Source: an uncultured Methanosarcinales archaeon
GTDB taxonomy: Archaea; Nanobdellota; Nanobdellia; Woesearchaeales; JAHJBD01
DNA: 64,000 bases
Assembly: GCA_964534665.1 (NCBI GenBank)
Contig: CAZHRT010000004.1
Span: forward strand, 10,956-74,955
Reading direction: 5' to 3'
Shown: positions 24,932-43,080 of the stretch, piece by piece
How the letters are laid out: each line of letters begins with the position of its first letter
Position numbering within the stretch: the first letter of the stretch is position 1
Position numbers and translations under genes: made by a program
Notes under the pieces: model-generated
Seen by the model: the letters and a program-made list of their open reading frames with translations, nothing else
Told to the model about the DNA's origin: nothing
Databases searched by the model: none

Positions 24932-25477
24932 ATGAAAGCAATTGTTTTTCCAAAAGCAAATGAAGAAGAATTCATTAAAATTGCAGAAAAGTTAGGCTAT
25001 TCTAGTTTGATATTTGTATATGATTATAGTTATTATTCAAATTCTCCAGAAATAAAGTCAAAATTAAACATTGAAAAAGGAATTTTATGTTTACCTAAAG
25101 AAATTAAAAAAGCAAAAAACCTTTCAAAATACCTTTTTGTACAATCTTCTAGTAAAGATAGGGAGATTATTGAACAAAACAAGAACATATTTTTATTTGA
25201 TCTAGAAACACAAGGGAAAAAAGATTTTATTCATCACAGGGCATCTGGCCTAAATCAAGTTTTATGTAAATTAATCAAAGAACATAATATTTCAATAGGT
25301 TTTTCATTTTCAACCGTGCTTAAAGCAACATCAAAAGATAAACTTATTGGAAGAATCAAACAAAACATTAAATTTTGTAAAAAGTATAAAATTTATACTA
25401 TTTATTCAACTTTTGCTTTAAAACCATATGAAATGAGGCCTGCAAAAGATATTTTATCTTTTTTTGAGGTAATATGA
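24932..25477 (+). CDS. rnp3: RNase P protein component 3 (Rpp30/Rnp3, TIM-barrel)
   Basis: The C-terminal half aligns by eye with Pyrococcus Rpp30 ([21 protein letters not shown] vs [41 protein letters not shown] vs [23 protein letters not shown]). Confidence 0.6.
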   Translation: [181 protein letters not shown]

Positions 25478-26400
25478 AAATAGTTTGTCCGCTAGATAAT
25501 AAAGAAGAAGTTCTTGATTTAATTAATGCTGGCGCTGATGAATTTTATTGTGGGTTTGTATCAGACGAATGGATAAAAAAATTTTCAGTAATGGCTAGTG
25601 CAAACCGCCGTGAATGGGGGGATTGCAATTTTAGAAGTATTGAAGACCTTAAACAAACATTAAAAATTTGTAAAAAACATGATAAACCAGTATTTTACTG
25701 TTTAAATTCAGCAAATATATCAAAAAATCAATATGATTTACTTTTTAAAGAACATGAAAAGATTAAAATGCTGGGCTTTAGCGATTATATTATTTCTGAT
25801 GTTGCATTAATGTTAAAATTTTCAAAATTTCATGTTAGTTGTGGCGCAGCAGCATTAAATTCAAACGCAATTCAGTTTTTTAAGAAAAATGGGGCCACAA
25901 GAATCATTCTTCCAAGACAAATTACTTTAGAAGAATTTAAAACACTAAGACAAAAAAACAAAAATGTTGAATTGGAAGCATTTATTCTTAATGATGCCTG
26001 TAAAAATTTAGATGGGCTGTGTACCTTCATGCACGGTTTTTCAAAAAGCTATTGTAAAGAAACAGTTGCCTGTTGTATGGATTATGATGTTGAAATAAAA
26101 ACTAACGACAAAATAAAGTCGCGTACAGTAAAAAGAAAACTCAAATCAAAATTAGCTAGTAACAAAACAATATGTGGTGCATGCGCATTACATGACTTTT
26201 ATCATGGGGGGCTAGACGCAGTAAAAATTGTTGGGCGCGGAAAATCAAAAGAACAAAAAATAAAAGACATAAAATTCATAAAATCTTTATTGGTGCACAC
26301 GAATTTATCTAGGGGTGAATTTATAAAAATTGCAAAAAACATAAGACAAAAAACATACCAAACGCCCTGTACTCCGGAGCTATGTTACTATGAAATCTAA
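25474..26400 (+). CDS. Peptidase-U32-family protein (UbiU/RlhA/TrhP-like putative Fe-S hydroxylase), paralog A
   Basis: N-terminus KIVCPLDNKEEVLDLINAGADEFYCGF, mid-block LEAFILNDACKNLDGLCTFMHGF, and a Cys cluster (C..C...CC...CGAC) consistent with the U32 4Fe-4S site. ATGA overlap with rnp3. Confidence 0.65.
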   Translation: MKIVCPLDNKEEVLDLINAGADEFYCGFVSDEWIKKFSVMASANRREWGDCNFRSIEDLKQTLKICKKHDKPVFYCLNSANISKNQYDLLFKEHEKIKMLGFSDYIISDVALMLKFSKFHVSCGAAALNSNAIQFFKKNGATRIILPRQITLEEFKTLRQKNKNVELEAFILNDACKNLDGLCTFMHGFSKSYCKETVACCMDYDVEIKTNDKIKSRTVKRKLKSKLASNKTICGACALHDFYHGGLDAVKIVGRGKSKEQKIKDIKFIKSLLVHTNLSRGEFIKIAKNIRQKTYQTPCTPELCYYEI

Positions 26401-27124
26401 AGCAATATTAATTTCAAGTGTAGAAGGCCTTCATTTAGCTAAAGGTTATGATATACTTTATTTTGGCCACGAATTTTGTGAACACCTTATACCTTCTTTG
26501 GGAGATTTTAAAATCGCACATAATTATGCGAAAAATAACAACCTAGGCTTTACAATAGTCACCCCTTACGTAACGGATAAGGGAATTAAACAAATTTCAA
26601 AAATTGTTTCCAATTTCAAAAATTGTGAAATAGTTATTAATGATTGGGGTGTTTTAGATTTATTACAAAATCACGATTTAAAAATAAATCTTGGTAGATT
26701 ATTAACAAAGCGTAAAAAAGATCCCCGAATTAGTAACCAAGAATTTAATAGAGACATTCTTGATAATTTAACAAACTCTAATCTACAAATACAAGAATTT
26801 CAAAATTTCTTAAAACAACACAAAGTTTCTAGGATTGAAATTGATAACGCAGTTCAAGGCCAACCCACCACTTCATTCCCTCAATCATTATATTATCCGT
26901 ACGTTTATTTAACTACAACAAGAAAATGCCCTTTTATAGGGATAAATACCCTTTCAAATAAAGTAACTTTTCTTTCTGGGTGTACAAAAGAATGCAAGAA
27001 ATATAGTGCAAAAATTTCAAATGATAAATTAGGTAAGATCATTTTAAAAGACAACGCCCAATTTTTTATAAACAACAAATTACCAAAAGGCATAGATAGG
27101 TTAGTTTACATACCATGGACATAA
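26390..27124 (+). CDS. Peptidase-U32-family protein, short paralog B (UbiV-like)
   Basis: AILISSVEGLHLAKGYDILYFGHEFC N-terminus and IVINDWGVLDLL, plus a C-terminal Cys cluster (RKCPF...SGCTKEC). 11-nt overlap with paralog A. Confidence 0.55.
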   Translation: MKSKAILISSVEGLHLAKGYDILYFGHEFCEHLIPSLGDFKIAHNYAKNNNLGFTIVTPYVTDKGIKQISKIVSNFKNCEIVINDWGVLDLLQNHDLKINLGRLLTKRKKDPRISNQEFNRDILDNLTNSNLQIQEFQNFLKQHKVSRIEIDNAVQGQPTTSFPQSLYYPYVYLTTTRKCPFIGINTLSNKVTFLSGCTKECKKYSAKISNDKLGKIILKDNAQFFINNKLPKGIDRLVYIPWT

Positions 27125-28191
27125 TGTTATTCTTGTTATACATACCTGCAATAGTTTTGTTAGGTTTGATAACTTCTCATGAAGACATGAAAAAAGGAAT
27201 AATCCGTAATAAATTAGTTTTATTTGCAATAATTTATTCTTTTTTTGTTTTAATTATTATTAGACCAGATATAGAATATATCTCTTCTTTTTTTATGAAT
27301 TCTTTCTTTGCCACCATAGCAGCAATTTTATTTTGGCTTGTAAATCTGTGGAGCGCAGGAGATGCCAAGTTATTTATCGCATACGTTTTCTTAATACCCC
27401 TAAATAGTTATGTTTATGGTTACGATAATTTGTTCCCGGCAATGGCTGTATTGGTTAATACTTTTTTACCCTTGTTTGTTTTTTATTTTTTAAAAACATT
27501 TTCAAAAATCACTTGGCAACAATTAATTAAAACTTTAAAATTTTCTTTTGATAAGAAAAAGTTATCAAATTTATTTATTAGTTTTTTTGCAATCTCCTGG
27601 CCATTATACTTTTTATCTAGCATGAACAACATATTTTCAAATTTATTTTTAGCAGTTATTGTTATTTTTTTAATACTCTCTTTACTTGAATTTCTTCTTC
27701 CAGGAAAACAAATAAAATGGTTTATAGTTATATCCCTTATTAGATTATTAATTGATAGATCAATATTAAAACAAGAATTTTGGGTGATGTTCTCCATTTT
27801 CTTTATATCCTACCTTATTTTAAGATATTTTGTGCTTTTCTTATCCTTTAGTGCCTTTACTAAGGATATTAATATTGAAGAATTAAAACCCGGGATGATG
27901 TTAGCTCAAAAAGTTGTTAAAAAAGGAAAGGGGTTTGTATTACAAGACGCATTCATAACAAATTTGTTTGAAGGGCTCAAAAAACAAAAAAATTCAATTT
28001 TAGCACCAAAAGTACTCAATAAAGGGGACATAACATTTATTAAAAAGTCACATAGTGACAATAAAATTAAAAAACATCAAATCAAAGTTCAAGAGTTTGT
28101 ATCTTTTGCATTATTTCTTTTTATGGGGGTTATTTTGACTTTATTTTTCAGGGGAAATATTGTTGTGTTTATATTAGAAACCTTTTTATAA
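27115..28191 (+). CDS. Type IV prepilin/preflagellin peptidase-like aspartic protease (A24 family; FlaK/PibD-like) with extra C-terminal TM helices
   Basis: Two catalytic Asp contexts at the spacing seen in FlaK/PibD: D24 in ITSHEDMKKGIIRN and D~82 in SAGDAKL (GxGDxKL-type). At 358 aa it is ~100 aa longer than typical. Confidence 0.6.
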   Translation: MDIMLFLLYIPAIVLLGLITSHEDMKKGIIRNKLVLFAIIYSFFVLIIIRPDIEYISSFFMNSFFATIAAILFWLVNLWSAGDAKLFIAYVFLIPLNSYVYGYDNLFPAMAVLVNTFLPLFVFYFLKTFSKITWQQLIKTLKFSFDKKKLSNLFISFFAISWPLYFLSSMNNIFSNLFLAVIVIFLILSLLEFLLPGKQIKWFIVISLIRLLIDRSILKQEFWVMFSIFFISYLILRYFVLFLSFSAFTKDINIEELKPGMMLAQKVVKKGKGFVLQDAFITNLFEGLKKQKNSILAPKVLNKGDITFIKKSHSDNKIKKHQIKVQEFVSFALFLFMGVILTLFFRGNIVVFILETFL

Positions 28192-28212: not shown

Positions 28213-28554
28213 ATGGAATCTGTAAGCAACATTGAATTTTATCAGGATGGGAACTATGCACTAATTTCAGTTAATCCAAAAACGTATTCTCTTTCAACAG
28301 TATATTCTGCTGCCTACACGTTCATTGAAAAAGCATATGTTTTAATTGAGGGGGACCCATCAGAAGAGATTATTGTTGAGATACGGCCTAAAGATAAACA
28401 ACACAATGCAAAACAATTTGCATTTGAATTCAACAACGAATTGCTTCACTACGCACTTTATGAAACAAACACAAAAAGAAATACTGCCGCTCGCGACATT
28501 ATACTAAAGCGTGCTTTATCAACTAACGATGGAACAAACAATACAATTAAATAA
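28213..28554 (+). CDS. HxsD-like small protein (His-Xaa-Ser system accessory protein-like), 113 aa; alternatively a RiPP precursor
   Basis: C-terminal ELLHYALYE resembles the LLNDYxLRE signature of the HxsD family (from memory). Lies immediately upstream of a radical-SAM/SPASM gene. Confidence 0.4.
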   Translation: MESVSNIEFYQDGNYALISVNPKTYSLSTVYSAAYTFIEKAYVLIEGDPSEEIIVEIRPKDKQHNAKQFAFEFNNELLHYALYETNTKRNTAARDIILKRALSTNDGTNNTIK

Positions 28555-28738
28555 ATTCTTTTATCCTAAAGAATTAATCAATCAAGCAGTAAAGGACTAC
28601 GAATCAATTTGCGACATTAAAATAATTGATAATGATCAAAGGTTTATTGTTACACTAGAGCTTAAACAGCCAGGTAACTTAAAAGAAGTTACAGGAGAAT
28701 TTTGCAATTATATTCTGGCCCTTATCAAGAACGCATAA
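28529..28738 (+). CDS. Shorter tandem paralog of the upstream HxsD-like protein (69 aa from MEQ)
   Basis: Blocks shared with the upstream gene: ME...F(Y/F)..., IEGDPSEEIIVEIRPKD vs IDNDQRFIVTLELKQPG, FAFEFNNELLHYAL vs VTGEFCNYILALI. Overlaps its 3' end by 26 nt. Confidence 0.4.
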   Translation: MEQTIQLNKFFYPKELINQAVKDYESICDIKIIDNDQRFIVTLELKQPGNLKEVTGEFCNYILALIKNA

Positions 28739-28767: not shown

Positions 28768-30066
28768 ATGGTTAAATTGAAAAAAGAAAATTCCGACAAT
28801 TTTATTTTACCAAGGTTTAGAAAGTTAGGGGACCAATATCTTATTACCTCTGATGGTGGCCACTGGACTTTTTCAAAAACACCAAAAATTAATAATATTA
28901 ACAACAATGATCCTGCGTGTACACAATATCAACGTAAGTATAAACATTTATTTCAGGGCACAGCATTACACATCATTGTGTTAACATTAAGGTGTAATCT
29001 TAAATGTAGTTATTGTCATGCGAGCGTATTGCCTACAGAGAAACAAGGGAAAGATATTGATGAAGTTACATTAAAAAAAACAATTGATTTTATTTTTCAA
29101 AGTCCTGCAGATAAAATTACTATTGAGTTTCAAGGTGGGGAGCCGCTTTTACGTTTTGATTTAATTAAAAAAGCAATAGATTATGCTTTGTCAAAAAAAG
29201 GTAAAGAAGTTAGATTCGCACTAGTTACAAACCTTCTTCTTATGGATGATGAAAAATTAGATTACCTTATTAGCAAAAAAGTTGGAATATGTACATCTCT
29301 TGATGGTCCAAAGGAAGTGCACGATCAAAATCGTGGTTGCTATGATCTACTTACTAAAAAAATTGATTTGGTAAAAAATAAAACACAACTTAATGCATTA
29401 ATGGTAACCACCAAACATTCTTTAGGCAAACACAAAGAGATTATAGATGAATATGTACTGTTCGGTCTTGACAAAATCCAGATTAAGCCATTAAATCAAT
29501 TAGGTTTTGCTAAAGGCAGACAAGATTTAAGCATTACTTCTGAAGAGTTTATAGATTTTTGGCAGAAATCAATTAAGTATATCATGGAACTTAATAGCAA
29601 AGGCGTTAATATTAAAGAAACTATGACCGAAGTTATTTTAAATAAAATAAAAGGGTTTGTGTCAGATGAAATTTATCTTGATTTATTAAGCCCCTGTGGT
29701 GCAGCAATAGGCCAATTAGCATATAATTACAACGGCAATATTTATTCGTGTGATGAAGCAAGGATGCTAAATGACGACTTATTTTTGTTGGGCAACGTGA
29801 ACAAAAACAATTACAAAGAAATTTTAACTAGTGATAAATGCTGTGCATTAATTGCGAGCTCCATTAATGACACCCATTTTTGTGATTTATGTGCATATAA
29901 ACCCTATTGTGGATTATGTCCTGTTTGCAGTTATGCAGATACAAATAATGTTATACCTCATTTACCAGATTTTAGATGTACTGTACATAAAGCAATGTTT
30001 GACTTTATATTTAAGAATTTTAGTAGCTTGAATGATTCCCATGATTCCCATGGTGGGCATGATTAA
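28768..30066 (+). CDS. Radical SAM enzyme with C-terminal SPASM domain (HxsB/HxsC-like peptide maturase; anSME-like)
   Basis: CNLKCSYC (Cx3Cx2C), GGEPLL glycine-rich SAM motif, SPASM Cys cluster (C..GN.YSC...CDLCAYKPYCGLCPVC). The C-terminal tail is NDSHDSHGGHD. Confidence 0.75.
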   Translation: MVKLKKENSDNFILPRFRKLGDQYLITSDGGHWTFSKTPKINNINNNDPACTQYQRKYKHLFQGTALHIIVLTLRCNLKCSYCHASVLPTEKQGKDIDEVTLKKTIDFIFQSPADKITIEFQGGEPLLRFDLIKKAIDYALSKKGKEVRFALVTNLLLMDDEKLDYLISKKVGICTSLDGPKEVHDQNRGCYDLLTKKIDLVKNKTQLNALMVTTKHSLGKHKEIIDEYVLFGLDKIQIKPLNQLGFAKGRQDLSITSEEFIDFWQKSIKYIMELNSKGVNIKETMTEVILNKIKGFVSDEIYLDLLSPCGAAIGQLAYNYNGNIYSCDEARMLNDDLFLLGNVNKNNYKEILTSDKCCALIASSINDTHFCDLCAYKPYCGLCPVCSYADTNNVIPHLPDFRCTVHKAMFDFIFKNFSSLNDSHDSHGGHD

Positions 30067-30289
30067 CTTCAATTGTATGTGTGTTAGTATCAACATTTAG
30101 CAATAAAGGGCTATATTTCCCTTTTGGATGATTAAAAACTGCTTCTACAGATTTTGCAGCAATCCCAATTACTGCTGCAGTACCAACAATAGCACCAACA
30201 GTCATAATAGCATGCTTAGAAATTTTACCTTCTTCATCTTGTAAAAATGATTTAATCTTCTTTTTTATCTTTGGAAGTAACATAATCAT
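30020..30289 (-). CDS. Small membrane-anchored peptide with His-rich C-terminal tail (candidate HxsA-like precursor/substrate), 89 aa
   Basis: Basic N-terminus MIMLLPKIKKKIK, a possible class-III-like cleavage context (KHA|IMTVGAIVGTAAVIGIAA), and the C-terminus NHAHHGNHGNHSSY. Starts 12 nt after the stop of the upstream radical SAM on the same strand. A chance ORF of this length in ~25% GC DNA is improbable. Confidence 0.5.
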   Translation of the reverse strand: MIMLLPKIKKKIKSFLQDEEGKISKHAIMTVGAIVGTAAVIGIAAKSVEAVFNHPKGKYSPLLLNVDTNTHTIEVNHAHHGNHGNHSSY

Positions 30290-30301
30290 AGATATAAATA
30301 A

Positions 30302-31252
30302 TTAATATTTAAACTTTGTTATAAGTGGGTCATTGTTTATGCCTCCAAGACACTTTATTTTATGTTTACACACATTACATTCTTTTGGTAAAAAAGAATT
30401 TAAACTATCAAAAATCTTACCAATTTGGTTGATTGATACATTTCCCAAGATTTTTTGTGAATAATAATCTGTTTTGATATCTCCTTTTGTATCTACCACT
30501 ATACGTGACCTACCACCATCATTAATCCCACCTACACAAACACTATCTGCTTTATTTGATATACAGAACGGAACAGCATTTGCTATAAAAAAATCTTTAT
30601 TATATTGTTTATTTAATCTTGAGATCTCTTGGATAGCCAACCCCATTTCTTTTATACTTGTATTACCTATAGGTCTAAGAAAAAACCAGTCATTATATTC
30701 AATTTCTTGTGCAATTTTATAAAATTCTTCAAGGCATTCAATATTTTTCTTAATTAAAATTGTTGCAAGCATAACAACAACATTATGTGTTTTCAATTTA
30801 TTCAGTATCTCTTTAATCCTTTTTTTTGGATCATGAAAAGAAATTAATATATGGTCAATATATTTTAATGGTCCATTTCTAAGCAAAGTTCCGTTCGTGT
30901 TAACTATTACATATAATCCCTTTTCTTTTGCATAACTCACAATTTTAGTCAAATCTTTACGTAAAAATGGTTCTCCCCCAGTTAATCTAATAGCATTAAC
31001 TCCAGACAAACAAACATTATCTATTATTTTCTTAATTTGACTTAAACTAGGATCACCATTATTTTTATTAAAACAAAATGAACAATTTAAATTACATTTA
31101 TCGGTTATTTCTATTCTAACCTCTTTCAAATTAGATTTATTTTTTCTTTGTTTGATTAAGTGTTTCAGTCTAGATGCAAGTTTCATAAAAATTAGTATAT
31201 CCTCACAATTAATAAGTTTTTGGATAAGTTTTTTATATTCTACAGTGTACAC
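30302..31252 (-). CDS. Radical SAM enzyme with C-terminal SPASM/twitch domain (second HXS-type maturase)
   Basis: CNLNCSFC (Cx3Cx2C), GGEPFL, C-terminal C...C and CNVCKHKIKC (Cx2Cx5C). The start may be the internal Met at 31186, which would leave room for divergent promoters. Confidence 0.7.
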   Translation of the reverse strand: MYTVEYKKLIQKLINCEDILIFMKLASRLKHLIKQRKNKSNLKEVRIEITDKCNLNCSFCFNKNNGDPSLSQIKKIIDNVCLSGVNAIRLTGGEPFLRKDLTKIVSYAKEKGLYVIVNTNGTLLRNGPLKYIDHILISFHDPKKRIKEILNKLKTHNVVVMLATILIKKNIECLEEFYKIAQEIEYNDWFFLRPIGNTSIKEMGLAIQEISRLNKQYNKDFFIANAVPFCISNKADSVCVGGINDGGRSRIVVDTKGDIKTDYYSQKILGNVSINQIGKIFDSLNSFLPKECNVCKHKIKCLGGINNDPLITKFKY

Positions 31253-31258
31253 TAAGTT

Positions 31259-31927
31259 ATGAGATGGGTAATGTTATTTTTAGTGATAGTTGCTTTTTTG
31301 TTATATGAACCAATATCTTTTGAATTATATCTTAACAATGAGTTCTCAGGTAATGCTAAAAAATTTTCAAATAAAGTTATGGAAGGAAAAGTAACATATT
31401 ATGTTAATAATTATTTTACAGAACAAGATTTAGCACCACTATGGAATTTATTATTTTCTAAACACTATTTTTATCCTACAAATTACTTGTCTTTTAATCA
31501 AAGAAGAATACTGGTAAATAAGGTATTTTCATTAAAGCCATCAACTTTGGAACAAGCTTCTGACCAAGTGAATATTCTTAAATATGGTTTGGGTTTAAAC
31601 AACGCTTCATCGACCATACCTTTTAGCCAAACAGGCAACATAATGCTCAAAAAAAATGTTTGTTCAAGTAAATTTAAGATTAATGTAACAGATTCATGTG
31701 AAGTTAGCAATTATATGGACTTATTCTTCTTTTGTGAAAACTCTCTTAGCAGTACAGAAACCGAAATGGTAGAGGGGGCAACAGAAGGAAATTGTGTAAC
31801 ACATTGTAAAGAACATTGTTATAATCCAGCACAAGTTTATGTTAACCAAGACTGTAAAAGCATGTTTGAAAAAAAGTTAATTGACCCAAATGTTAATTTC
31901 CACTGTATATTTTTAAAATGGACCTAG
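31259..31927 (+). CDS. Hypothetical secreted/membrane-anchored Cys-containing protein (222 aa)
   Basis: N-terminal hydrophobic segment MLFLVIVAFLL and ~10 Cys in the C-terminal half. Embedded between two radical SAM genes. Confidence 0.35.
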   Translation: MRWVMLFLVIVAFLLYEPISFELYLNNEFSGNAKKFSNKVMEGKVTYYVNNYFTEQDLAPLWNLLFSKHYFYPTNYLSFNQRRILVNKVFSLKPSTLEQASDQVNILKYGLGLNNASSTIPFSQTGNIMLKKNVCSSKFKINVTDSCEVSNYMDLFFFCENSLSSTETEMVEGATEGNCVTHCKEHCYNPAQVYVNQDCKSMFEKKLIDPNVNFHCIFLKWT

Positions 31928-33177
31928 ATTTACTAAATTTGTCAAAACACGGCATAAGAAAGAAAAAGTATGATCACGAATTTATTTATAGGTATCCTTC
32001 TTCTAGCAATATGCCCAAATTTAATCATGATGGATTTTCTATTACTACAAAAAAAGCTGCATTATACCTCCACTTACCTTTTTGTTCTAGTCCATGTAAA
32101 TTTTGCCATTATTATAAAATACCTAAACCTAATCCAAAACAAATAACAAAATATTTAGAATATGTAAAAAAAGAAATAAAGTTCTATAATGGTATTAAAG
32201 CAACATCTCTTTTTTTGGGTGGCGGAACACCAACATTTCTTGAGTCAGAACAATTAATTGACATATACTCTTACCTAAATGATGCATTCTCTATTGGAGA
32301 CATTGAAAAAACCATAGAATCCAGCCCAGAAACATTAAACAATAAGAAAATTAATACTTTAGCTGATTTGGGATTTAATAGACTAAGTATTGGTGTTCAA
32401 TCATTCAATGATTCGATAAATAAAAATGTTGGCCGAGCACATAATACTAATCAATCAATTCAAGCTATTAATCAAGCAAAAGATGCAGGGTTTAAAGTTA
32501 ATGTTGACTTAATTTATGGTCTACCCTCACAAGACACCAATTCATGGAAAGAATCTTTAGAAAAAGCATACAGATTAAATGTTGATTCTATAACAGCATC
32601 AGAACTTAGGGTGTTACCAGGATCATATTATTACTACACTAACGAAAAGTTCGCATCCGAAAAAAAAATGTTGGGGATGCACGAAACATTTATTGATTTT
32701 TTTCATGATAAAGGTTACAATTTAATATTCCCTTACCAATATTCAAAACAGAAATTTGATTTTTTAGAAACTCAATGGGGCAATAAACAGTTTTTGGGTT
32801 TAGGCGCATCTTCCTGTTCTTATATTGACAAGTGGGATTATAATAATGCTTTTCCTTTGGGCCTTTATTACAAATATATTGACAAATATGGTTATGCCGC
32901 AATTAAAGGGAAAAAACTGAACTTACAAGAACAAATGTTAAGAGAAATCTTACTTGGATTAAAGATCATTAATAAAGGAATATCTAAAAAAGAGTTAAGT
33001 GATAAATATGGTCTTAATAATTTTAAAGTTTTTGATCAATTAGCAGACCTTAAACTAATAGATAACAATCAAAACATAACTCTCACAACAAAAGGAACCC
33101 TATTTTCAGATGAAGTGGCAAATTTTATACTCCGAAAGTTTCAAGCATCCCATCTTCTCCAGAACCAAACTCCATAA
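31918..33177 (+). CDS. HemN/HemW-like radical SAM protein (oxygen-independent coproporphyrinogen-III oxidase family)
   Basis: CSSPCKFC (Cx3Cx2C), GGGTPT and IGVQSFNDSINKNVGRAHN motifs typical of the HemN/HemW family, plus the HemN C-terminal domain. Confidence 0.75.
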   Translation: MDLDLLNLSKHGIRKKKYDHEFIYRYPSSSNMPKFNHDGFSITTKKAALYLHLPFCSSPCKFCHYYKIPKPNPKQITKYLEYVKKEIKFYNGIKATSLFLGGGTPTFLESEQLIDIYSYLNDAFSIGDIEKTIESSPETLNNKKINTLADLGFNRLSIGVQSFNDSINKNVGRAHNTNQSIQAINQAKDAGFKVNVDLIYGLPSQDTNSWKESLEKAYRLNVDSITASELRVLPGSYYYYTNEKFASEKKMLGMHETFIDFFHDKGYNLIFPYQYSKQKFDFLETQWGNKQFLGLGASSCSYIDKWDYNNAFPLGLYYKYIDKYGYAAIKGKKLNLQEQMLREILLGLKIINKGISKKELSDKYGLNNFKVFDQLADLKLIDNNQNITLTTKGTLFSDEVANFILRKFQASHLLQNQTP

Positions 33178-34978
33178 CTTCATTTAGTTGTAAATCAAAC
33201 ACTTTTACTCTCGACCTTTTCATATCAGTAATATATATCTTATTTCCTTCAATTGCAACTTCAAGTATTGTAAGTTCGTCTTGATCTTCACCAAAATCAC
33301 CAAAGGATTCAAACAATTTAGTATCAAAATCATATATCACGCCTTTTCTGTTTGTATTATCTGCAAATACTAATCTATTATCTTGGGTTAAGGCTAAACT
33401 TTCATCAAGTTCACCTATGCTGTCAGGTATGTTTATTTTTTCTATCAAATTAAATTCTTTGTCAAATACATTAATTGTTCTACCAAAATCATTTGTGACA
33501 ATTAGCTTTTCATTATTGGCTAATACTCCTAAAGGTAATTTAATATCATCAATAGTTTTTATTAACTTCAATTCTTCATAAACTTTAATTGTTTTTGTAT
33601 CGTCTTCTACAGCATATAATTTACCATTACCAAAAGAAAGGGCCATTGGAGAATATATATCTTTGATTGTATTTTTGTGGTTTAGTTCATTATCAAAAAT
33701 TTGTATTCTATTGTTATTCTTATCTGCAACATAAATATTACCTTCTATATCACTGGCTATCCCAGAAGGATTATTAAAATGCTCATTACTAAACCCTTTT
33801 CCAAGACCAATTTTTCCAAGGTAAACTCCTGTTTTATCAAAAAAGATTACTTTATTGTTTAATGGATCTGAAACAAAAACCTCATCAGAAACAGTTATAA
33901 AAAAAGGCGCAAATAAAGCACCCATTATTTGTGTTTGCAAACTAGCTAATTCTTTAACATAATTTAATTCTTTATCAAGTACAACAACTCTTTGGTTTCC
34001 ACTATCTGCAACATAAATTTGCCCTTTATCATAAACTAACCTGCTAGGTAAATAGAATTGGTTTATTCCGTTACCAAGGCCACCATTTTTTTTGATTAAT
34101 TTGCCTTTTTTATCTAGTTTGATGATTTGATGGTTCTTATGGTCAGCGATATAGATATTATTCCCAGCTATAGCAATTCCACTTGGTCTTGAATCTGGGA
34201 CATCTATGTTTTTAATAAATTCTAAATTTTTATCTAAAACTTTTATCCTTTGATTATTTCTCTCAATTACATAAATTTCTTTATCAACAACAATATCTGT
34301 TGGATTATCAACATTTACACTAGTTACTTTTCCATCAATTAATTTTGCAACAGTCCCAGTTCTATCATCTGTAAAGTAAAACCCTGTTCCAACATCAAAA
34401 CCTAAAATACCTGCATCAACACTTGGCGTATCCAATAAAGTAGGTATCAAATTAATTAATTCTTTAGGTAAACTAATTGTTTCAATGAAATCTAGTTCGT
34501 TTGAATAAACTTTAATTTTTTGATTAAATCTATCTAAGATATAGATTTTCCCATTTTTATAAACTACATTTGATGGGAACCTAAATAAGTCATCATCTGT
34601 TCCACCATTAATAAATTTAATATTTCCTTCTGCATCATTAGTTGTTCTTTCTCCAATTGTATCTACATGCAAAAGAGATTTTTTGTTATAAGCCATAATT
34701 CTATGTCTCATTTCATCAACAACCAAAACAAAATCTTTTGCAATTGCTACATCTGTAACAGAAATTGGGTCAACTTGGAAAGGAATAATCTCTTGGCCAC
34801 AGATAGCTTCACAACTTCCACCACAATCAACTCCTAGTTCACCACGATTAAGAATGCCATCATAACAATGCATTGTATACTTAGGTTTAGGTATAATCCA
34901 TAACGCGATTATTATAATTATTGCAATTAGAATTATTATACTAACTATTTTTCCTTTATGTTTTTTTGAAACCAACAA
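33125..34978 (-). CDS. NHL-repeat beta-propeller protein, N-terminal TM anchor, extracellular
   Basis: Signal-anchor IVSIIILIAIIIIIALWII and at least six NHL repeats (GKIYILDRFNQKIKVY, NIYIADHKNHQIIKLD, QIYVADSGNQRVVVLD, NIYVADKNNNRIQIFD ...). Confidence 0.7.
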   Translation of the reverse strand: MLVSKKHKGKIVSIIILIAIIIIIALWIIPKPKYTMHCYDGILNRGELGVDCGGSCEAICGQEIIPFQVDPISVTDVAIAKDFVLVVDEMRHRIMAYNKKSLLHVDTIGERTTNDAEGNIKFINGGTDDDLFRFPSNVVYKNGKIYILDRFNQKIKVYSNELDFIETISLPKELINLIPTLLDTPSVDAGILGFDVGTGFYFTDDRTGTVAKLIDGKVTSVNVDNPTDIVVDKEIYVIERNNQRIKVLDKNLEFIKNIDVPDSRPSGIAIAGNNIYIADHKNHQIIKLDKKGKLIKKNGGLGNGINQFYLPSRLVYDKGQIYVADSGNQRVVVLDKELNYVKELASLQTQIMGALFAPFFITVSDEVFVSDPLNNKVIFFDKTGVYLGKIGLGKGFSNEHFNNPSGIASDIEGNIYVADKNNNRIQIFDNELNHKNTIKDIYSPMALSFGNGKLYAVEDDTKTIKVYEELKLIKTIDDIKLPLGVLANNEKLIVTNDFGRTINVFDKEFNLIEKINIPDSIGELDESLALTQDNRLVFADNTNRKGVIYDFDTKLFESFGDFGEDQDELTILEVAIEGNKIYITDMKRSRVKVFDLQLNEVMEFGSGEDGMLETFGV

Positions 34979-35071: not shown

Positions 35072-38000
35072 GTGGATGATTTAAATATGTTTAAGAGTAA
35101 AATACTACTCATTTTAATATTGGCTCTTGCCGCATATAGTGTATCTGCTGCAGAATGTAGCGAATGTGGCGCACACACCACAGCATGTGATTGCCCTTCT
35201 TTTTGTGAAAATTCTGGAGATACTAGCGGTACTTGTGGAGATATTATACGTTGTCAACCAGTTGCAGGAAGAACAATATCTGAATGTAGTTCTTTTACAG
35301 ATGGTGCAGTATGTACATCATCACCTGGCTGTTCATTTTGTTCAGGGAGCGGTACTTGTTCATCTTTAACTAGTGCAGGCAAAAATACTTGTAAAAAACA
35401 GCCAGATTGTAGTTGGGACGAAACAGATGTTGACCCAGTCAACCATTTTTGTACTGGTAGTGCAAAATCTTGCTTTGATATAGGTTTGGATCCAAGTTGT
35501 ATAGCTGGCGATTTTTGTGAATCAGATTGTAATTCAGCAGCATTATGTAGTTGGGACACATGTGACGGTGCAGTTGAATCTTGTCAAAGTAGAACATCTG
35601 AAATCGAATGTCAAATTACGGGTAGCAATTGTTTTTGGATTGGCGATAATATTGATCAGGACCAAGATATTTACACCAAAAACGATATTTGTCGAACAGG
35701 AGAAACGCTTCAAATGGATTTTTGGTTATTAGATGTTGCCGATAGGGATGGCATTTGTCCACCAACAGATTGTATTGATGAACCAGGTGATTGTGCAGGT
35801 GCAGGTTACACTGGCGAGGCACTTACATGGTGTCAAAATAATCCTTATTTGATACATCCTGGCGTTTTTGATTTTCCAAACGATGGCATTGACCAGGACT
35901 GTAATGGTGCAGATTCAACAAAAGCAATAGATTGCGATTCATCCCTTTCAGCATGTGTTTATATTCACAAATTTGATAATGATGTTTTATCAGAACACCC
36001 AGTAGATTTTTATCCTTGTTATTTACAAGATCCAACTTGTAAAAAATGTGATCGTGATTATGGTTTAACAGACCCTTGTGTCAGAACATGTTCTGGGACA
36101 GATTGTTGGAAACTAGGAAAATATAAAACTATTATAAAAAGACATTCCAAAGAAGAATTCGAGTATTCTTTTGATTTTGATAATTTAGGTGAAACTAAAT
36201 GTAATAATGCAGACTGGTATGGCTCAGATGGTGTTTGGCGTGATGCTGGTTGGTTAGGTGCTGGCGGAGATTTAAATTGTTGTGGAGATGATAGGCCCTG
36301 GGTTTATGAAGGAATAGCCTTTAGACTTTATGAAACTGCAGCAGCATCCAGAGAATCTGTTTTTAGAGTTTTTAATGACGATCTACAAGATTCTTTTTTC
36401 TTAGGCCAAAGCTCACAAGCAAATTTGGTTAATTTGGAAGCTAAGGGGTATTCATGGGAAACTTTTTTGTATGCTCCACCTTCAACAGGAACTACTGGAG
36501 ATGAAGTGTGGGCACTATATAATCCATTAAACGGCGATAGGATCTTTACTACAGATACTAATGAAAAAAATACCCTTGTAGGTGCTGGCATAGCTGCTGA
36601 CTGGCACCCAACTCAAACATTTAGGGCACTTGGTCCAACAGAATCTCCCTCTACAACTATTGCAGTACACCGTTTTTATAATCCTGATAAAGGTATTCAT
36701 TACTTTACAAAAGACGAAAGTGAAATTGTTACATTAACAGATGGTCCAGAAATTTTTACTTGCGGCTCTGACATATTTACAGCATGTGTTGATTCAAATA
36801 TTGTCAAAGATGCAGATGAAGACGAAAATGTTTGTATAGGCTGTGGCCATTATCCATTAGATGGAAATTTAGGGGGTTTAGCTTGGAATGAGGAATTAGA
36901 TTCAAATAATTGTTGCGGTAACGAAGAAACTGATTGCGGCATATCTGATGGGCCAAACCTTTGCTATATGGATGATACCTCTTCAAGATGGATTGCAGGT
37001 ACACAAGGCGAAGAAAATAGTGTGGGTACCGTAATTAATATGCCTTGTGATGATTCTGATTATACATTATTACCTAACCTAGAATGGGTTCCATGCAAAG
37101 AAAATAGTTTTATGGCCCCTTTTTCACCAACAAAATTAAGGTTCCTGATTGGAGACGTTCTACACGAATATCTTTGTAAAGATAGTGAAATTCTTGCTTG
37201 TTGTGGTCCAGATAACACAAATGAAGATTGTCTTGTTCCATTAAGCAATGCTCGAACTACAACAGATGGCCCTGTAACAATTGGCACAGATACTTTTTAT
37301 TGTACTTCTTCATTTACATGGACAACTCAACCAGATGTAGATGAAGCCTCTTGTATTGCTTCAACAAATCCTGTTACTAGCACAAATAATGTTTGGACAG
37401 GCACAAAATGTTGTGGTGATGATGGTCTTGATGATGATTACTCAGACCATTTAGGGATTGGTGCTTGTTTAAATGGTGCAGTAATACCTAATGGTGATAA
37501 AGCAGCTAATGATCTGATTGTTGAAAATGGATTATTATATGGTTGTGTTGTAGATACTTCAGATTTTCCAGATATGTCAGAAGATATCATAACTCCTTCT
37601 GATCGTTGTGAGATAATTTCCAATAATTTCTGTTCATATTCTGGGGATTGGAGCACAGAAATTTCAACCAGGGATAATCCTACTTATCGTAATAGGACAG
37701 CAACTAAGCATGAATCAATTTCTGGTGGCACAACGAGTGCTTGTTGTGAAGTTAGCGAATGTTGGGATAGTAGAACTTGCGTTTCACATGGCACAATTAT
37801 CAACCAAAATTATGCCTGTATTAATGGTGATTGGGAAGACAGAGAACTTCGTTGGAAATGGGACTTCAGTGAAAACGGTTATTGTTTAAGTAATGATCAG
37901 TGCCTTGTAGAAGATCTTGCAAGTGCAACCGACAAATGCATTGATTCAGGAGAATACATATTTGACCATTATTGTGAAGAAGGGAACTGGACATCTAGAA

Positions 38001-42936: not shown

Positions 42937-43080
42937 ATGAAAGAACGTATCACAATTACCTTAGATAAAGAACTTCTAGACTGGTTAGATAAAAAAATCG
43001 ACGATAAAGTATTTGCAAATCGTTCTCATGGCTTTGAGTTCTTATTAAAAAGGAAAATGGAGGACGAAAATGAAAGTTAA
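42937..43080 (+). CDS. Ribbon-helix-helix (CopG/Arc/MetJ-type) DNA-binding protein, 47 aa; below the ORF-track cutoff
   Basis: MKERITITLDKELLDWLDKKIDDKVFANRSHGFEFLLKRK is a beta-strand/helix/helix pattern typical of RHH. Purine-rich stretch AAAAAGGGG 6 nt upstream. The 3' end overlaps the ATG of the 2567-aa gene by 11 nt. Confidence 0.6.
   Translation: MKERITITLDKELLDWLDKKIDDKVFANRSHGFEFLLKRKMEDENES

What the first reader, a model, noticed from the sequence alone, without database searches (positions are those of the whole stretch)
30020..30289. Candidate precursor peptide with pilin-like leader and His-rich tail, overlapping antisense with the His-rich tail of the convergent radical SAM through CATG palindromes
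The 89-aa minus-strand ORF has a K-rich N-terminus and a KHA|IMTVGAIVG context resembling a class III (prepilin) signal peptide. It also has one TM helix and ends in NHAHHGNHGNHSSY.

Its last 47 nt are the reverse complement of the last 15 codons of the plus-strand radical SAM, which ends NDSHDSHGGHD. The sequence CCATGATTCCCATGGTGGGCATG is built from CATG units, so His (CAT) is encoded on both strands with a 1-nt frame offset.

Either one of the two tails is an ORF-caller artefact, or the locus encodes His-repeat tails on both convergent genes. An A24 prepilin peptidase gene lies 1.8 kb away in the same island.
Basis: seen in the sequence. Interest (0 to 1): 0.7.

Follow-up and report, generated by a model that had tools for sequence, protein, structure and literature searches.

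The report
Archaeal HxsA-like His-repeat precursor gene
The small minus-strand ORF is a real, conserved gene for the His-repeat substrate protein of a radical-SAM "HXS" maturation cluster in a small DPANN-type archaeon; the mirror-image His-rich end of the neighbouring enzyme is a by-product of a short deletion, not a second designed tail.

Summary
ORF 30020..30289(-), 89 aa, overlaps the last 47 nt of the convergent rSAM/SPASM gene 28768..30066(+), and three CATG palindromes lie in the overlap.

The enzyme is HxsB (TIGR03978, 391.8 bits, cutoff 370). HxsD and an HxsD-like gene lie just upstream. The ORF belongs to a large HxsA3/HxsA4-like family: 517 cluster representatives at E<=1e-3. Members share a K-rich leader, a hydrophobic helix and a C-terminal HxHH(x[SN]H)n tail, often ending HSSY.

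Two syntenic archaeal orthologues keep the tail (H.HHG[SN]HGNHSSY) through 4-8 synonymous codon changes. Their HxsB genes end in an unrelated conserved helix (KEIFxxW) and overlap the small gene by only 4 or 11 nt. The window lost about 40-47 nt there, so HxsB now reads into the antisense of the His tail. Sense (HGN)n automatically mirrors as (HDS)n.

Verdict: a sub-threshold member of a known system, in an archaeal variant without HxsC and with a linked A24 peptidase. Moderate interest.

The parts
30020..30289 (-). HxsA3/HxsA4-like His-repeat precursor/effector gene (89 aa; alternative start at 30283 gives 87 aa)
   Evidence: NCBIfam HxsA3 full-length match, E 1.8e-7, 30.9 bits (cutoff 65). 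A profile of it plus two relatives finds 517 cluster representatives at E<=1e-3. Orthologues in syntenic loci L001 and L045. dN/dS 0.118 against L001 with dS saturated.
30215..30289 (-). K-rich leader, residues 1-25 (MIMLLPKIKKKIKSFLQDEEGKISK); the most conserved part of the family; inferred recognition sequence for the maturation proteins
   Evidence: Invariant or near-invariant P6, K9, K10, F15, E19, G21, I23, K25 in 40 relatives. The same leader occurs in archaeal, CPR and Omnitrophota loci next to HxsB.
30155..30211 (-). Single hydrophobic helix, residues 27-45 (AIMTVGAIVGTAAVIGIAA); membrane anchor or targeting segment
   Evidence: Maximum Kyte-Doolittle hydropathy 2.14 over 19 aa. G32 is near-invariant in the family.
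30023..30064 (-). His-repeat core, residues 76-89 (NHAHHGNHGNHSSY); inferred site of radical-SAM modification
   Evidence: The pattern H.HHG[SN]HGNHSSY is kept in L001 and L045 through 4-8 synonymous codon differences. HSSY is the commonest family ending, 15 of 99. By analogy, E. coli HxsA is modified in its last HxS repeat (PMC13128918).
28768..30066 (+). HxsB, radical SAM/SPASM maturase (432 aa)
   Evidence: TIGR03978 391.8 bits, cutoff 370. Pfam Radical_SAM, Fer4_12 and SPASM. Homologues are named HxsB in Nanoarchaeota and Woesearchaeota MAGs.
30020..30066 (.). 47-nt convergent overlap. The last 15 HxsB codons (SSLNDSHDSHGGHD + stop) are the antisense of the HxsA-like tail. Three CATG palindromes at 30040, 30049, 30058.
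   Evidence: The overlap is only 4 nt in L001 and 11 nt in L045, where HxsB ends ...KEIFVNWLEN / ...KEIFLYWANS. The distance from the small gene's stop to the FDxIF-coding anchor is 7 nt here, against 54 and 47 nt.
28213..28554 (+). HxsD
   Evidence: TIGR03976 53.7 bits, cutoff 50.
28511..28738 (+). HxsD-like small protein
   Evidence: NF038315 65.8 bits, cutoff 41. Present between HxsD and HxsB in most related loci.
27115..28191 (+). A24-family (FlaK/PibD-like) membrane aspartyl peptidase with Arc_PepC domain; candidate leader peptidase (inferred)
30302..31252 (-). Second radical SAM enzyme (316 aa), 12 nt upstream of and co-oriented with the small gene; not HxsC
   Evidence: Pfam Radical_SAM and Fer4_12. 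No HxsC among the best 25 NCBIfam hits. Orthologues precede the small gene in L001 and L045; a homologue follows it in L063.
31918..33177 (+). HemN-like radical SAM protein; recurrent neighbour, possibly part of the system
   Evidence: Pfam Radical_SAM and HemN_C. Homologues in L001, L045, L071 and CPR loci L032, L038, L041 near the precursor gene.

Best explanation
The 89-aa ORF is a real gene. It encodes the substrate/effector protein of an archaeal variant of the His-Xaa-Ser (HXS) radical-SAM maturation system. It is an HxsA3/HxsA4-like protein with three parts: a conserved K-rich 25-residue leader, one hydrophobic helix, and a short C-terminal His-every-third-residue core (HHG NHG NHS SY).

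Shown here:
- It lies in a cassette A24-like peptidase / HxsD / HxsD-like / HxsB, convergent with [second rSAM / HxsA-like].
- The protein, and especially its His tail, is conserved under purifying selection.
- HxsB's His-containing tail is a lineage-specific replacement. About 40-47 nt encoding HxsB's usual C-terminal helix (...KEIFxxW) and its stop were lost. Translation now runs 15 codons into the antisense of the small gene's tail.
- Because that tail uses CAT followed by G-starting codons, CATG palindromes make (HGN)n on one strand read as (HDS)n on the other.

Inferred, by analogy with E. coli HXS and from gene order:
- The leader is bound by the HxsD proteins and/or HxsB.
- The cytoplasmic rSAM enzymes modify the terminal H-x-S-type repeat.
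- The leader is then removed at the cytoplasmic face of the membrane, just before the hydrophobic helix. The co-conserved FlaK-like A24 peptidase is the best candidate (my estimate about 35-40%).
- The mature protein is displayed outside the membrane with its modified His array. There it may block entry of viral DNA, as in E. coli, or bind metal.
For: System identity:
- HxsB, HxsD and HxsD-like all score above their curated NCBIfam cutoffs.
- The ORF aligns full-length to the HxsA3 model, E 1.8e-7.
- A three-sequence profile retrieves 517 representatives with the same leader / helix / His-tail layout.
- Relatives lie directly beside HxsB in about 30 fetched loci. Some of them pass the HxsA4 cutoff.

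Coding:
- Orthologues exist in syntenic L001 and L045/L046.
- dN/dS is 0.118 with dS saturated. In the last 15 codons there are 4-8 synonymous against 1-3 non-synonymous codon differences.

HxsB tail as a by-product:
- The overlap is 4 nt in L001 and 11 nt in L045. Their HxsB tails share KEIFxxW.
- 84 of 120 HxsB homologues carry [IVLM][FLMI]xxW near the end. None but the window has more than 2 His in its last 15 residues.
- The spacer is 7 nt here against 54 and 47 nt in the orthologues.
- Only one antisense frame is open.

A24 link:
- Family and fold are confirmed.
- The cassette occurs in 10 archaeal lineages with differing flanks.
- Ala or Ser occupies position -1 of the proposed site in all 10, against 68 of 99 family-wide.

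Analogy: E. coli HxsA is N-terminally processed and gains +8 Da in its last HxS repeat. Both depend on HxsB, HxsC and HxsD (PMC13128918).
Against: - The score lies below the HxsA3 and HxsA4 cutoffs (30.9 against 65; 17.5 against 55).
- Only the last repeat is literally His-Xaa-Ser.
- No HxsC is present. The second rSAMs of this and related loci are not HxsC. The chemistry may therefore differ from E. coli.
- No expression, modification or cleavage data exist.
- The junction lacks the K/R at -2 that is typical of class III signal peptides.
- Ten related loci have no A24 gene within about 5 kb: CPR loci, L064, L070 and L072.
- Two A24-like homologues (L066, L067) are not next to Hxs genes.
- In the window and in L068 the A24 gene lies close to (in L068 directly next to) the housekeeping gene for RNase P p30. 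It could therefore be the cell's general prepilin peptidase.
- The defence function is extrapolated from a proteobacterial HxsA that has a peptidoglycan-binding domain. That domain is absent here.
Confidence: 0.8

Rival explanations
1. The linked A24 gene is simply the organism's housekeeping prepilin/pre-archaellin peptidase. It stays beside the Hxs genes by inherited synteny. The precursor's leader is removed, if at all, by another route, as in E. coli, where processing depends on HxsB, HxsC and HxsD.
For: - The junction is not a canonical class III motif: -2 is Q/E in 77 of 99 and K/R in 6 of 99.
- The same leader exists in 10 loci (7 CPR, 3 of unassigned domain) without a linked A24 gene.
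- The A24 gene lies close to (in L068 directly next to) the RNase P p30 gene in the window and in L068.
- Homologues L066 and L067 are not beside Hxs genes.
- E. coli HxsA cleavage needs only HxsB, HxsC and HxsD.
Against: - The block A24 / HxsD / HxsD-like / HxsB / HxsA-like is contiguous and co-oriented in most linked loci, with gaps of about 8-50 nt.
- It recurs in lineages only 30-60% identical whose flanks differ (L050, L053, L054, L057, L071 against the window).
- Position -1 is Ala or Ser in all 10 linked loci, but Asp in the CPR loci.
Confidence: 0.4
2. The small protein is a true type IV pilin-like protein. Its class III signal peptide is cut at KHA|IMTVG by the A24 peptidase, and the mature protein assembles into a filament that carries a His-rich tip.
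For: - The layout is a positively charged N-region followed by a hydrophobic helix.
- A FlaK-fold peptidase lies in the cassette.
- A small residue occupies -1 in the linked loci.
Against: - There is no K/R at -2.
- The leader is long (27 aa) and is the most conserved segment. That is the opposite of pilin signal peptides and typical of maturase-recognised leaders.
- Pfam searches of 20 of the window's larger ORFs found no pilus-assembly ATPase or platform gene; the ORFs from 41 to 64 kb mostly gave no match or were not searched.
- The family is always tied to HxsB and HxsD, not to pilus genes.
Confidence: 0.08
3. Both His tails are functional and dual-coding is under selection. For example, HxsB's HDSHDSHGGHD tail could act as an in-cis substrate mimic, an autoinhibitor or a metal-binding tag.
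For: - The HxsB tail contains two literal His-Xaa-Ser units.
- It has the same length as the lost native tail: 17 against 18 residues after FDxIF.
- HxsB is otherwise intact and constrained, with dN/dS 0.112.
Against: - The tail is absent from every other HxsB examined (119 homologues, including the two closest orthologues).
- The HDS units are the deterministic mirror image of sense HGN codons.
- Other HxsB clades also lack the native C-terminal helix, so losing it is tolerated.
- No close sister sequences exist with which to test selection.
Confidence: 0.05
4. The minus-strand ORF is a spurious antisense ORF, and only HxsB is real.
For: - It is short.
- It has no Pfam hit.
- It scores below the NCBIfam cutoffs.
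Against: - 517 homologous representatives exist.
- Orthologues occur in syntenic loci where the overlap is only 4-11 nt.
- Synonymous drift with a conserved protein.
- 223 of its 270 nt lie outside HxsB.
Confidence: 0.01

Closest known systems
E. coli HXS antiphage system (HxsA/B/C/D; Li et al., Nat Commun 2026, PMC13128918)
   Same: - An HxsB rSAM/SPASM maturase and HxsD are present above curated cutoffs.
- The substrate protein carries His-x-x repeats near a region that is modified in E. coli (+8 Da in the last HxS repeat).
- The substrate has an N-terminal segment that is removed in E. coli.
- The effector is predicted to act outside the cytoplasmic membrane.
   Different: - No HxsC. A different 316-aa rSAM and a HemN-like rSAM lie nearby.
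- An extra HxsD-like gene and a linked A24 peptidase are present.
- The substrate is 89 aa with a membrane helix and only about 3-4 repeats. It has no Sec-type signal peptide and no peptidoglycan-binding domain.
- Gene order is convergent rather than D-B-C-A.
- The host is an archaeon. The paper places 99.7% of HXS systems in Pseudomonadota.
- The defence function is untested here.
NCBIfam HxsA3 (NF038309) and HxsA4 (NF038313) His-Xaa-Ser repeat proteins
   Same: - Full-length alignment to the HxsA3 model (residues 5-88 against positions 2-81 of 81).
- Same leader, helix and His-tail layout.
- Adjacency to HxsB.
- Relatives retrieved with the window's profile pass the HxsA4 cutoff (L064 protein 98.3 bits, P0038 71.6 bits).
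   Different: - Scores 30.9 and 17.5 bits, well under the cutoffs of 65 and 55.
- The repeat array is short (HHG NHG NHS SY) and uses Asn where the models expect Ser.
- It ends in HSSY rather than the long (HGS)n-W/C arrays of the CPR members.
Archaeal class III (prepilin-like) signal peptides processed by A24 peptidases FlaK/PibD/EppA
   Same: - A charged N-region is followed directly by a hydrophobic helix.
- The candidate cut lies at the cytoplasmic membrane face.
- A FlaK-fold GxGD-type peptidase is encoded in the same cassette.
- A small residue occupies the proposed -1 position.
   Different: - No K/R at -2.
- The leader is 27 residues long and highly conserved.
- No pilus or archaellum assembly genes were found nearby.
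- The peptidase motif is SAGD rather than GxGD.
- Cleavage is untested.
Leader-dependent rSAM/SPASM RiPP maturation (e.g. SCIFF, PapB ranthipeptides, CcpM)
   Same: - A small precursor with a conserved N-terminal leader and a repetitive C-terminal core lies beside an rSAM/SPASM enzyme.
- HxsB's next-best NCBIfam hits are PapB, CcpM and SCIFF maturases.
   Different: - The precursor has a transmembrane helix between leader and core.
- The core is His-rich, not Cys-rich.
- The product is probably a membrane-anchored protein rather than a released peptide.

Membership tests
HXS (His-Xaa-Ser) radical SAM system | HxsB rSAM/SPASM maturase (TIGR03978) at or above the curated cutoff | tested here: met
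   391.8 bits against cutoff 370, residues 51-422.
HXS (His-Xaa-Ser) radical SAM system | HxsD (TIGR03976) present | tested here: met
   28213..28554: 53.7 bits against cutoff 50. Also an HxsD-like protein (NF038315), 65.8 against 41.
HXS (His-Xaa-Ser) radical SAM system | Second paired rSAM HxsC (TIGR03977) | tested here: not met
   The 316-aa rSAM at 30302..31252 has no HxsC among its best 25 NCBIfam hits; the top hits are the MoaA-like N-terminal region only. The second rSAMs of four related loci are also not HxsC.
HXS (His-Xaa-Ser) radical SAM system | Substrate protein with tandem His-Xaa-Ser repeats | tested here: inconclusive
   The tail HHG-NHG-NHS-SY keeps the His-every-third spacing, but only the last unit is H-x-S. 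The closest orthologues have HHGSHGNHSSY.
HXS (His-Xaa-Ser) radical SAM system | Gene order HxsD-HxsB-HxsC-HxsA on one strand (99.6% of described systems) | tested here: not met
   Here the order is D, D-like, B on the plus strand, convergent with [rSAM, A-like] on the minus strand. Related archaeal and CPR loci are D, D-like, B, A on one strand without C.
HXS (His-Xaa-Ser) radical SAM system | Antiphage activity; rSAM-dependent modification and N-terminal processing of HxsA | not testable with these tools
   Known only for E. coli (PMC13128918). PADLOC 2023 has no HXS models; only generic rSAM hits were found.
NCBIfam HxsA3 (NF038309) / HxsA4 (NF038313) | Score at or above the curated cutoff | tested here: not met
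   HxsA3 30.9 against 65; HxsA4 17.5 against 55. The closest relatives P0002, P0004 and P0016 are also below cutoff.
NCBIfam HxsA3 (NF038309) / HxsA4 (NF038313) | Homology over the full length, and a location next to HxsB | tested here: met
   Residues 5-88 align to model positions 2-81 of 81, E 1.8e-7. The profile links it to proteins that pass the HxsA4 cutoff. Adjacent to HxsB here and in about 30 loci.
Class III (prepilin-type) signal peptide | Short charged N-region directly followed by a hydrophobic helix | tested here: met
   Net charge +4 in residues 1-25; hydrophobic residues 27-45. However, the N-region is long and conserved.
Class III (prepilin-type) signal peptide | K/R at -2 and G/A/S at -1 of the cleavage site (motif recalled from the FlaFind/PibD literature, own knowledge) | tested here: not met
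   The window has H-A|I. Family-wide, -2 is Q/E in 77 of 99 and K/R in 6 of 99, and -1 is S/A/G in 68 of 99. Only 5 of 99 have [KR][GAS][hydrophobic] anywhere at the junction.
Class III (prepilin-type) signal peptide | Cleavage by an A24 peptidase | not testable with these tools
   Only gene linkage is available: 10 archaeal lineages.
Peptidase A24 (FlaK/PibD) for 27115..28191 | Match to the Peptidase_A24 (PF01478) and Arc_PepC (PF06819) models | tested here: inconclusive
   The window protein itself has only Arc_PepC at 21 bits, below the 23.4 cutoff, and no PF01478 hit at E<=0.01. 24 of 27 homologues match each model.
Peptidase A24 (FlaK/PibD) for 27115..28191 | Two catalytic aspartates, the second in a GxGD motif | tested here: met
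   D24 is near-invariant. D83 is invariant within W-x-AGDAKLF, which reads SAGD here: the Gly-Asp is kept and the first Gly is replaced.
Peptidase A24 (FlaK/PibD) for 27115..28191 | FlaK-type membrane protease fold | tested here: met

The most novel reading that the evidence does not exclude
In DPANN-type archaea, a dedicated FlaK-like A24 aspartyl peptidase may have been recruited into a radical-SAM maturation pathway as its leader peptidase. It would cut a non-canonical K-x-[AS]|[LIV] site at the membrane face, after HxsB and HxsD have modified the His-repeat core. This would release a membrane-anchored, rSAM-modified His array on the cell surface. That would be a hybrid of class III signal-peptide processing and RiPP-style maturation, and possibly an archaeal counterpart of the bacterial DNA-entry-blocking HXS defence. 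It would also name a candidate for the unidentified N-terminal processing step of HXS systems.
Probability: 0.3. Interest if true: 0.7.

Novelty: new variant of a known kind. Interest (0 to 1): 0.45.

Why it matters
HXS was shown to be an antiphage system only in 2026, and it was described as almost exclusively proteobacterial.

This locus belongs to a large, essentially undescribed branch in DPANN archaea and candidate-phyla bacteria:
- 517 precursor cluster representatives.
- More than 3,000 HxsB relatives at E<=1e-60.
- Its substrate is a small membrane-anchored protein.
- It lacks HxsC.

In archaea the cassette carries its own FlaK-like peptidase. If that enzyme removes the leader, it gives a concrete, testable handle on the unexplained N-terminal processing step of HXS maturation. 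It would also be a new job for prepilin peptidases.

The overlap itself is a clean worked example of two things. A small deletion can replace an enzyme's C-terminus with the antisense of its own substrate gene. And His-Gly/Ala repeats automatically create His-rich antisense ORFs, which is a trap for annotation.

Tried and rejected
- Pfam on the small ORF: no hit.
- PDB sequence searches with the A24-like protein alone and as a 27-sequence profile: nothing meaningful.
- tRNA and Rfam scans of the window: empty.
- PADLOC: only generic viperin-like rSAM similarity, no HXS models.
- The 40-sequence family alignment was too divergent for the locus scan. A 10-sequence subset worked.
- P0005 (2131 aa, 12 weak stretches) is a repeat-protein false positive of the profile search.
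- L036, labelled Klebsiella, did not show a canonical HxsC downstream, so it was not used as an HxsC reference.
- Looked for close sister strains of the window's HxsB to test selection on its tail: none exist. The next relative is 58% identical.
- Considered that U32 'peptidase' 25474..26400 might be the leader protease. Rejected as unsupported: its best NCBIfam hits, all below cutoff, are to UbiU and TrhP, which are named as hydroxylase / quinone-biosynthesis proteins rather than proteases. It does recur near Hxs genes in L001 and L071.
- Literature search for prepilin peptidase + radical SAM + leader peptide + archaea: no paper in the library.
Full report
**1. Observation**

The region was read directly and ORFs were listed.
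- An 89-aa ATG ORF occupies 30020..30289 on the minus strand: MIMLLPKIKKKIKSFLQDEEGKISKHAIMTVGAIVGTAAVIGIAAKSVEAVFNHPKGKYSPLLLNVDTNTHTIEVNHAHHGNHGNHSSY.
- A 432-aa plus-strand ORF, 28768..30066, ends ...FDFIFKNFSSLNDSHDSHGGHD.
- The two share 30020..30066 (47 nt).
- Three CATG palindromes lie at 30040, 30049 and 30058. The window average predicts 0.096 in 47 nt. Each is a His CAT followed by a G-starting codon (Ala, Gly, Gly) in the minus-strand frame.
- The N-terminus has 7 Lys in 25 residues. There is one hydrophobic stretch, residues 27-45.
- The sequence 29800..30320 is identical in independent ENA and Logan assemblies. The gene is also identical in a JGI contig. Gene callers there call both overlapping genes. 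The overlap is therefore not an assembly artefact.
- An open antisense frame of 15 codons is not remarkable in itself: 42% of random 15-codon stretches in this window lack a stop.

**2. What the locus is**

NCBIfam identifies most of the neighbours.

| Coordinates | Strand | Assignment | Score vs cutoff |
|---|---|---|---|
| 28768..30066 | + | HxsB, rSAM/SPASM maturase of the His-Xaa-Ser system (TIGR03978) | 391.8 vs 370 |
| 28213..28554 | + | HxsD (TIGR03976) | 53.7 vs 50 |
| 28511..28738 | + | HxsD-like (NF038315) | 65.8 vs 41 |
| 30020..30289 | - | HxsA3-like, aligned end to end (E 1.8e-7) | 30.9 vs 65 |
| 30302..31252 | - | radical SAM, 316 aa, 12 nt upstream of the small gene, same strand; not HxsC | no curated hit |

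The second radical SAM genes of four related loci are not HxsC either.

The window is archaeal. It carries MCM with the archaeal winged helix, PolD DP1 and DP2, Cdc6, TBP, FEN1, tRNA-intron endonuclease and RNase P p30, at 32% G+C. Relatives come from MAGs labelled Nanoarchaeota, Woesearchaeota or Nanobdellota. The region is housekeeping chromosome, not an island.

**3. The small ORF is a conserved gene**

- A word-indexed search found only three relatives.
- An exhaustive HMMER search with a profile of them found 517 cluster representatives at E<=1e-3.
- Nearly all sampled members are 70-140 aa and share one layout:
  - a leader [FIL]PKIKKKIxxFLxxE[ED]GKISK, with P6, E19 and K25 invariant and K9, K10, F15, G21, I23 and G32 near-invariant;
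  - a hydrophobic helix;
  - a variable spacer;
  - a tail (T)HxHH(x[SN]H)n that ends in an aromatic residue or Cys.
- HSSY, the window's ending, is the commonest last tetrapeptide, 15 of 99.
- Some members pass the HxsA4 cutoff. The family therefore spans NCBIfam's HxsA3 and HxsA4.
- In about 30 fetched loci a family member lies directly beside HxsB. These loci are archaeal, Gracilibacteria/Peribacteria (read with code 25) and Omnitrophota.
- Two fully syntenic archaeal loci carry orthologues of 77 and 83 aa: L001 (GCA_004196275.1) and L045/L046 (GCA_018823065.1 and GCA_018813725.1).
- Whole-gene dN/dS against L001 is 0.118 with saturated dS. In the last 15 codons the three genes encode V-x-H-x-H-H-G-[SN]-H-G-N-H-S-S-Y, with 4-8 synonymous and 1-3 non-synonymous codon differences per pair.

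**4. The two tails**

In L001 and L045 the convergent genes overlap by only 4 and 11 nt. HxsB there ends ...FDYIFTKVNDQKTKEIFVNWLEN and ...FDYIFEKIKHPKYKEIFLYWANS.

A C-terminal helix with [IVLM][FLMI]xxW is present in 84 of 120 HxsB homologues. It is also seen in proteobacterial and CPR HxsBs.

In the window the distance from the small gene's stop to the DNA encoding FDxIF is 7 nt. It is 54 nt in L001 and 47 nt in L045. About 40-47 nt, carrying the native tail and stop, are missing. HxsB therefore continues in the only open antisense frame until TAA at 30064..30066.

The new tail happens to have nearly the old length: 17 against 18 residues after FDxIF. No other HxsB among the 120 listed has more than two His in its last 15 residues.

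Sense AAT-CAT-GGG (N-H-G) read on the other strand, one base out of register, gives CAT-GAT-TCC (H-D-S). The HxsB tail's 'His-Xaa-Ser' units are thus a deterministic mirror image. The same effect produces His-rich antisense ORFs across the repeat arrays of L009, L033, L035 and L040.

HxsB is otherwise intact: the SPASM cysteines are present, and dN/dS against L001 is 0.112. Other clades also lack the terminal helix, for example ...FDWVVKEKFINK. Its loss is evidently tolerated.

Conclusion: the small gene's tail is the selected feature. The HxsB tail is real as an ORF but is a young by-product. There are no close sister strains with which to test selection on it directly; the next HxsB is 58% identical.

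**5. The 'pilin-like leader' and the A24 gene**

The 358-aa protein at 27115..28191 has only a sub-threshold Arc_PepC hit by itself. Other evidence places it in the A24 family:
- 24 of 27 homologues match Peptidase_A24 and Arc_PepC.
- D24 and D83 (in AGDAKLF) are conserved.

The cassette A24-like / HxsD / HxsD-like / HxsB / HxsA-like occurs in 10 archaeal lineages: the window, L001, L045, L010, L050, L053, L054, L057, L068 and L071. In most of them the genes are contiguous and co-oriented; L010 and L068 have one or two other genes between the peptidase and HxsD. Gaps are about 8-50 nt, and the flanks differ between loci.

Family-wide the figure is 68 of 99. The unlinked CPR loci have Asp there.

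Against a class III signal peptide:
- Position -2 is Q/E in 77 of 99 and K/R in 6 of 99.
- The leader is long and is the best-conserved segment.
- Ten loci (7 CPR, 3 of unassigned domain) with the same leader have no A24 gene within about 5 kb.
- Two A24-like homologues lie away from Hxs genes.
- In the window and in L068 the A24 gene lies close to (in L068 directly next to) the RNase P p30 gene.

My reading is that the N-terminus is primarily a maturase-recognition leader. The linked FlaK-like enzyme is a plausible but unproven leader peptidase, at about 35-40%.

**6. Mechanism proposed**

Shown:
- The gene set and its conservation.
- Coding constraint on the small gene.
- The origin of the overlap.

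[quoted passage not shown] By analogy:
- The leader recruits the HxsD proteins and/or HxsB.
- The cytoplasmic rSAM enzymes modify the terminal GNHSSY-type unit.
- The leader is cut at the membrane face.
- The helix anchors the mature product with its His array outside the cell.

Whether it blocks viral DNA entry, binds metal or does something else is unknown. The archaeal protein lacks the peptidoglycan-binding domain of E. coli HxsA, and these systems lack HxsC.

**7. Comparison and novelty**

HxsB in Nanoarchaeota and Woesearchaeota MAGs is already named by NCBI's pipeline. HxsA3 and HxsA4 are curated families. The kind is therefore known.

The window's precursor is unnamed or 'hypothetical' in its sources and falls below the curated cutoffs.

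Several features are not covered by the 2026 description, which places 99.7% of HXS in Pseudomonadota with order D-B-C-A:
- The archaeal cassette has no HxsC.
- It has an extra HxsD-like gene and a linked FlaK-like peptidase.
- Its partner rSAMs vary.
- U32/p244, NHL and HemN-like neighbours recur (L071).

No paper in the searchable library links prepilin peptidases with rSAM leader processing in archaea.

I rate it a new variant of a known kind, of moderate interest (0.45). The A24 linkage is the part worth pursuing.

Noticed in passing
window 25474..27124, 31918..34978; L071 1..11401: L071 (HxsB 44% identical) carries the same neighbour set as the window in a different arrangement. The set is A24-like, HxsD, HxsD-like, HxsB, HxsA-like, an NHL-repeat protein, a p244-like protein with U32, and a HemN-like rSAM. 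The U32/p244 pair, the NHL protein and the HemN-like rSAM may belong to a larger conserved cluster. HemN-like genes also lie near the precursor in CPR loci L032, L038 and L041.
   Followed up: partly
L062 1867..2700; proteins P0036, P0080, P0099: Some family members (249-277 aa) carry what looks, by eye, like a Hint/intein-type domain after the His repeats (CFPAGT...HN; not tested with a profile). This suggests self-cleaving C-terminal processing in those variants.
   Followed up: no
L048 147..629; proteins P0055, P0076, P0091: Other members replace or extend the His tail with long Cys-rich C-terminal regions built from CGxxC-type repeats. The same leader therefore serves different cores.
   Followed up: no
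L070 4040..7110; L060 574..1943: Some loci have several precursor copies: three in L070, one of them upstream of HxsD, and two in L060. L070 and L072 use a leader variant, EEGRMPKQS, and have no A24-like gene within about 5 kb.
   Followed up: partly
L032, L033, L035, L038-L041 (Gracilibacteria/Peribacteria): With table 11 the precursor ORFs stop at a TGA inside the hydrophobic helix (…ALGLAV*). With code 25 (TGA = Gly) they read through to long (HGS)n arrays. Standard-code annotation would truncate or miss them.
   Followed up: yes
L066 5012..7098; L067 6001..8079: A24-like homologues in an Aenigmatarchaeota genome and an Undinarchaeales genome are not next to HxsB or HxsD. Each does sit beside a radical SAM gene of about 305-311 aa. 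The A24-rSAM association may thus be wider than the Hxs cassette.
   Followed up: partly
window 28511..28554: The HxsD ORF and the GTG-started HxsD-like ORF overlap by 44 nt. The NF038315 match begins at residue 11, so the true start is probably the internal ATG a few codons downstream.
   Followed up: no
window 35072..40987 and 43070..50773: Two giant ORFs lie just downstream of the cluster, of 1971 and 2567 aa. The first is visibly Cys-rich with an apparent signal sequence; the second was not inspected. The L003 copy of the first has a DUF5648 hit, and L001 has a Cu-binding MopE-like protein at the corresponding place.
   Followed up: no
window 31259..31927: A 222-aa ORF with an N-terminal hydrophobic segment and a Cys-rich C-terminal part lies between the 316-aa rSAM and the HemN-like rSAM. 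It is present only in the window's own lineage and absent from L001 and L045.
   Followed up: partly
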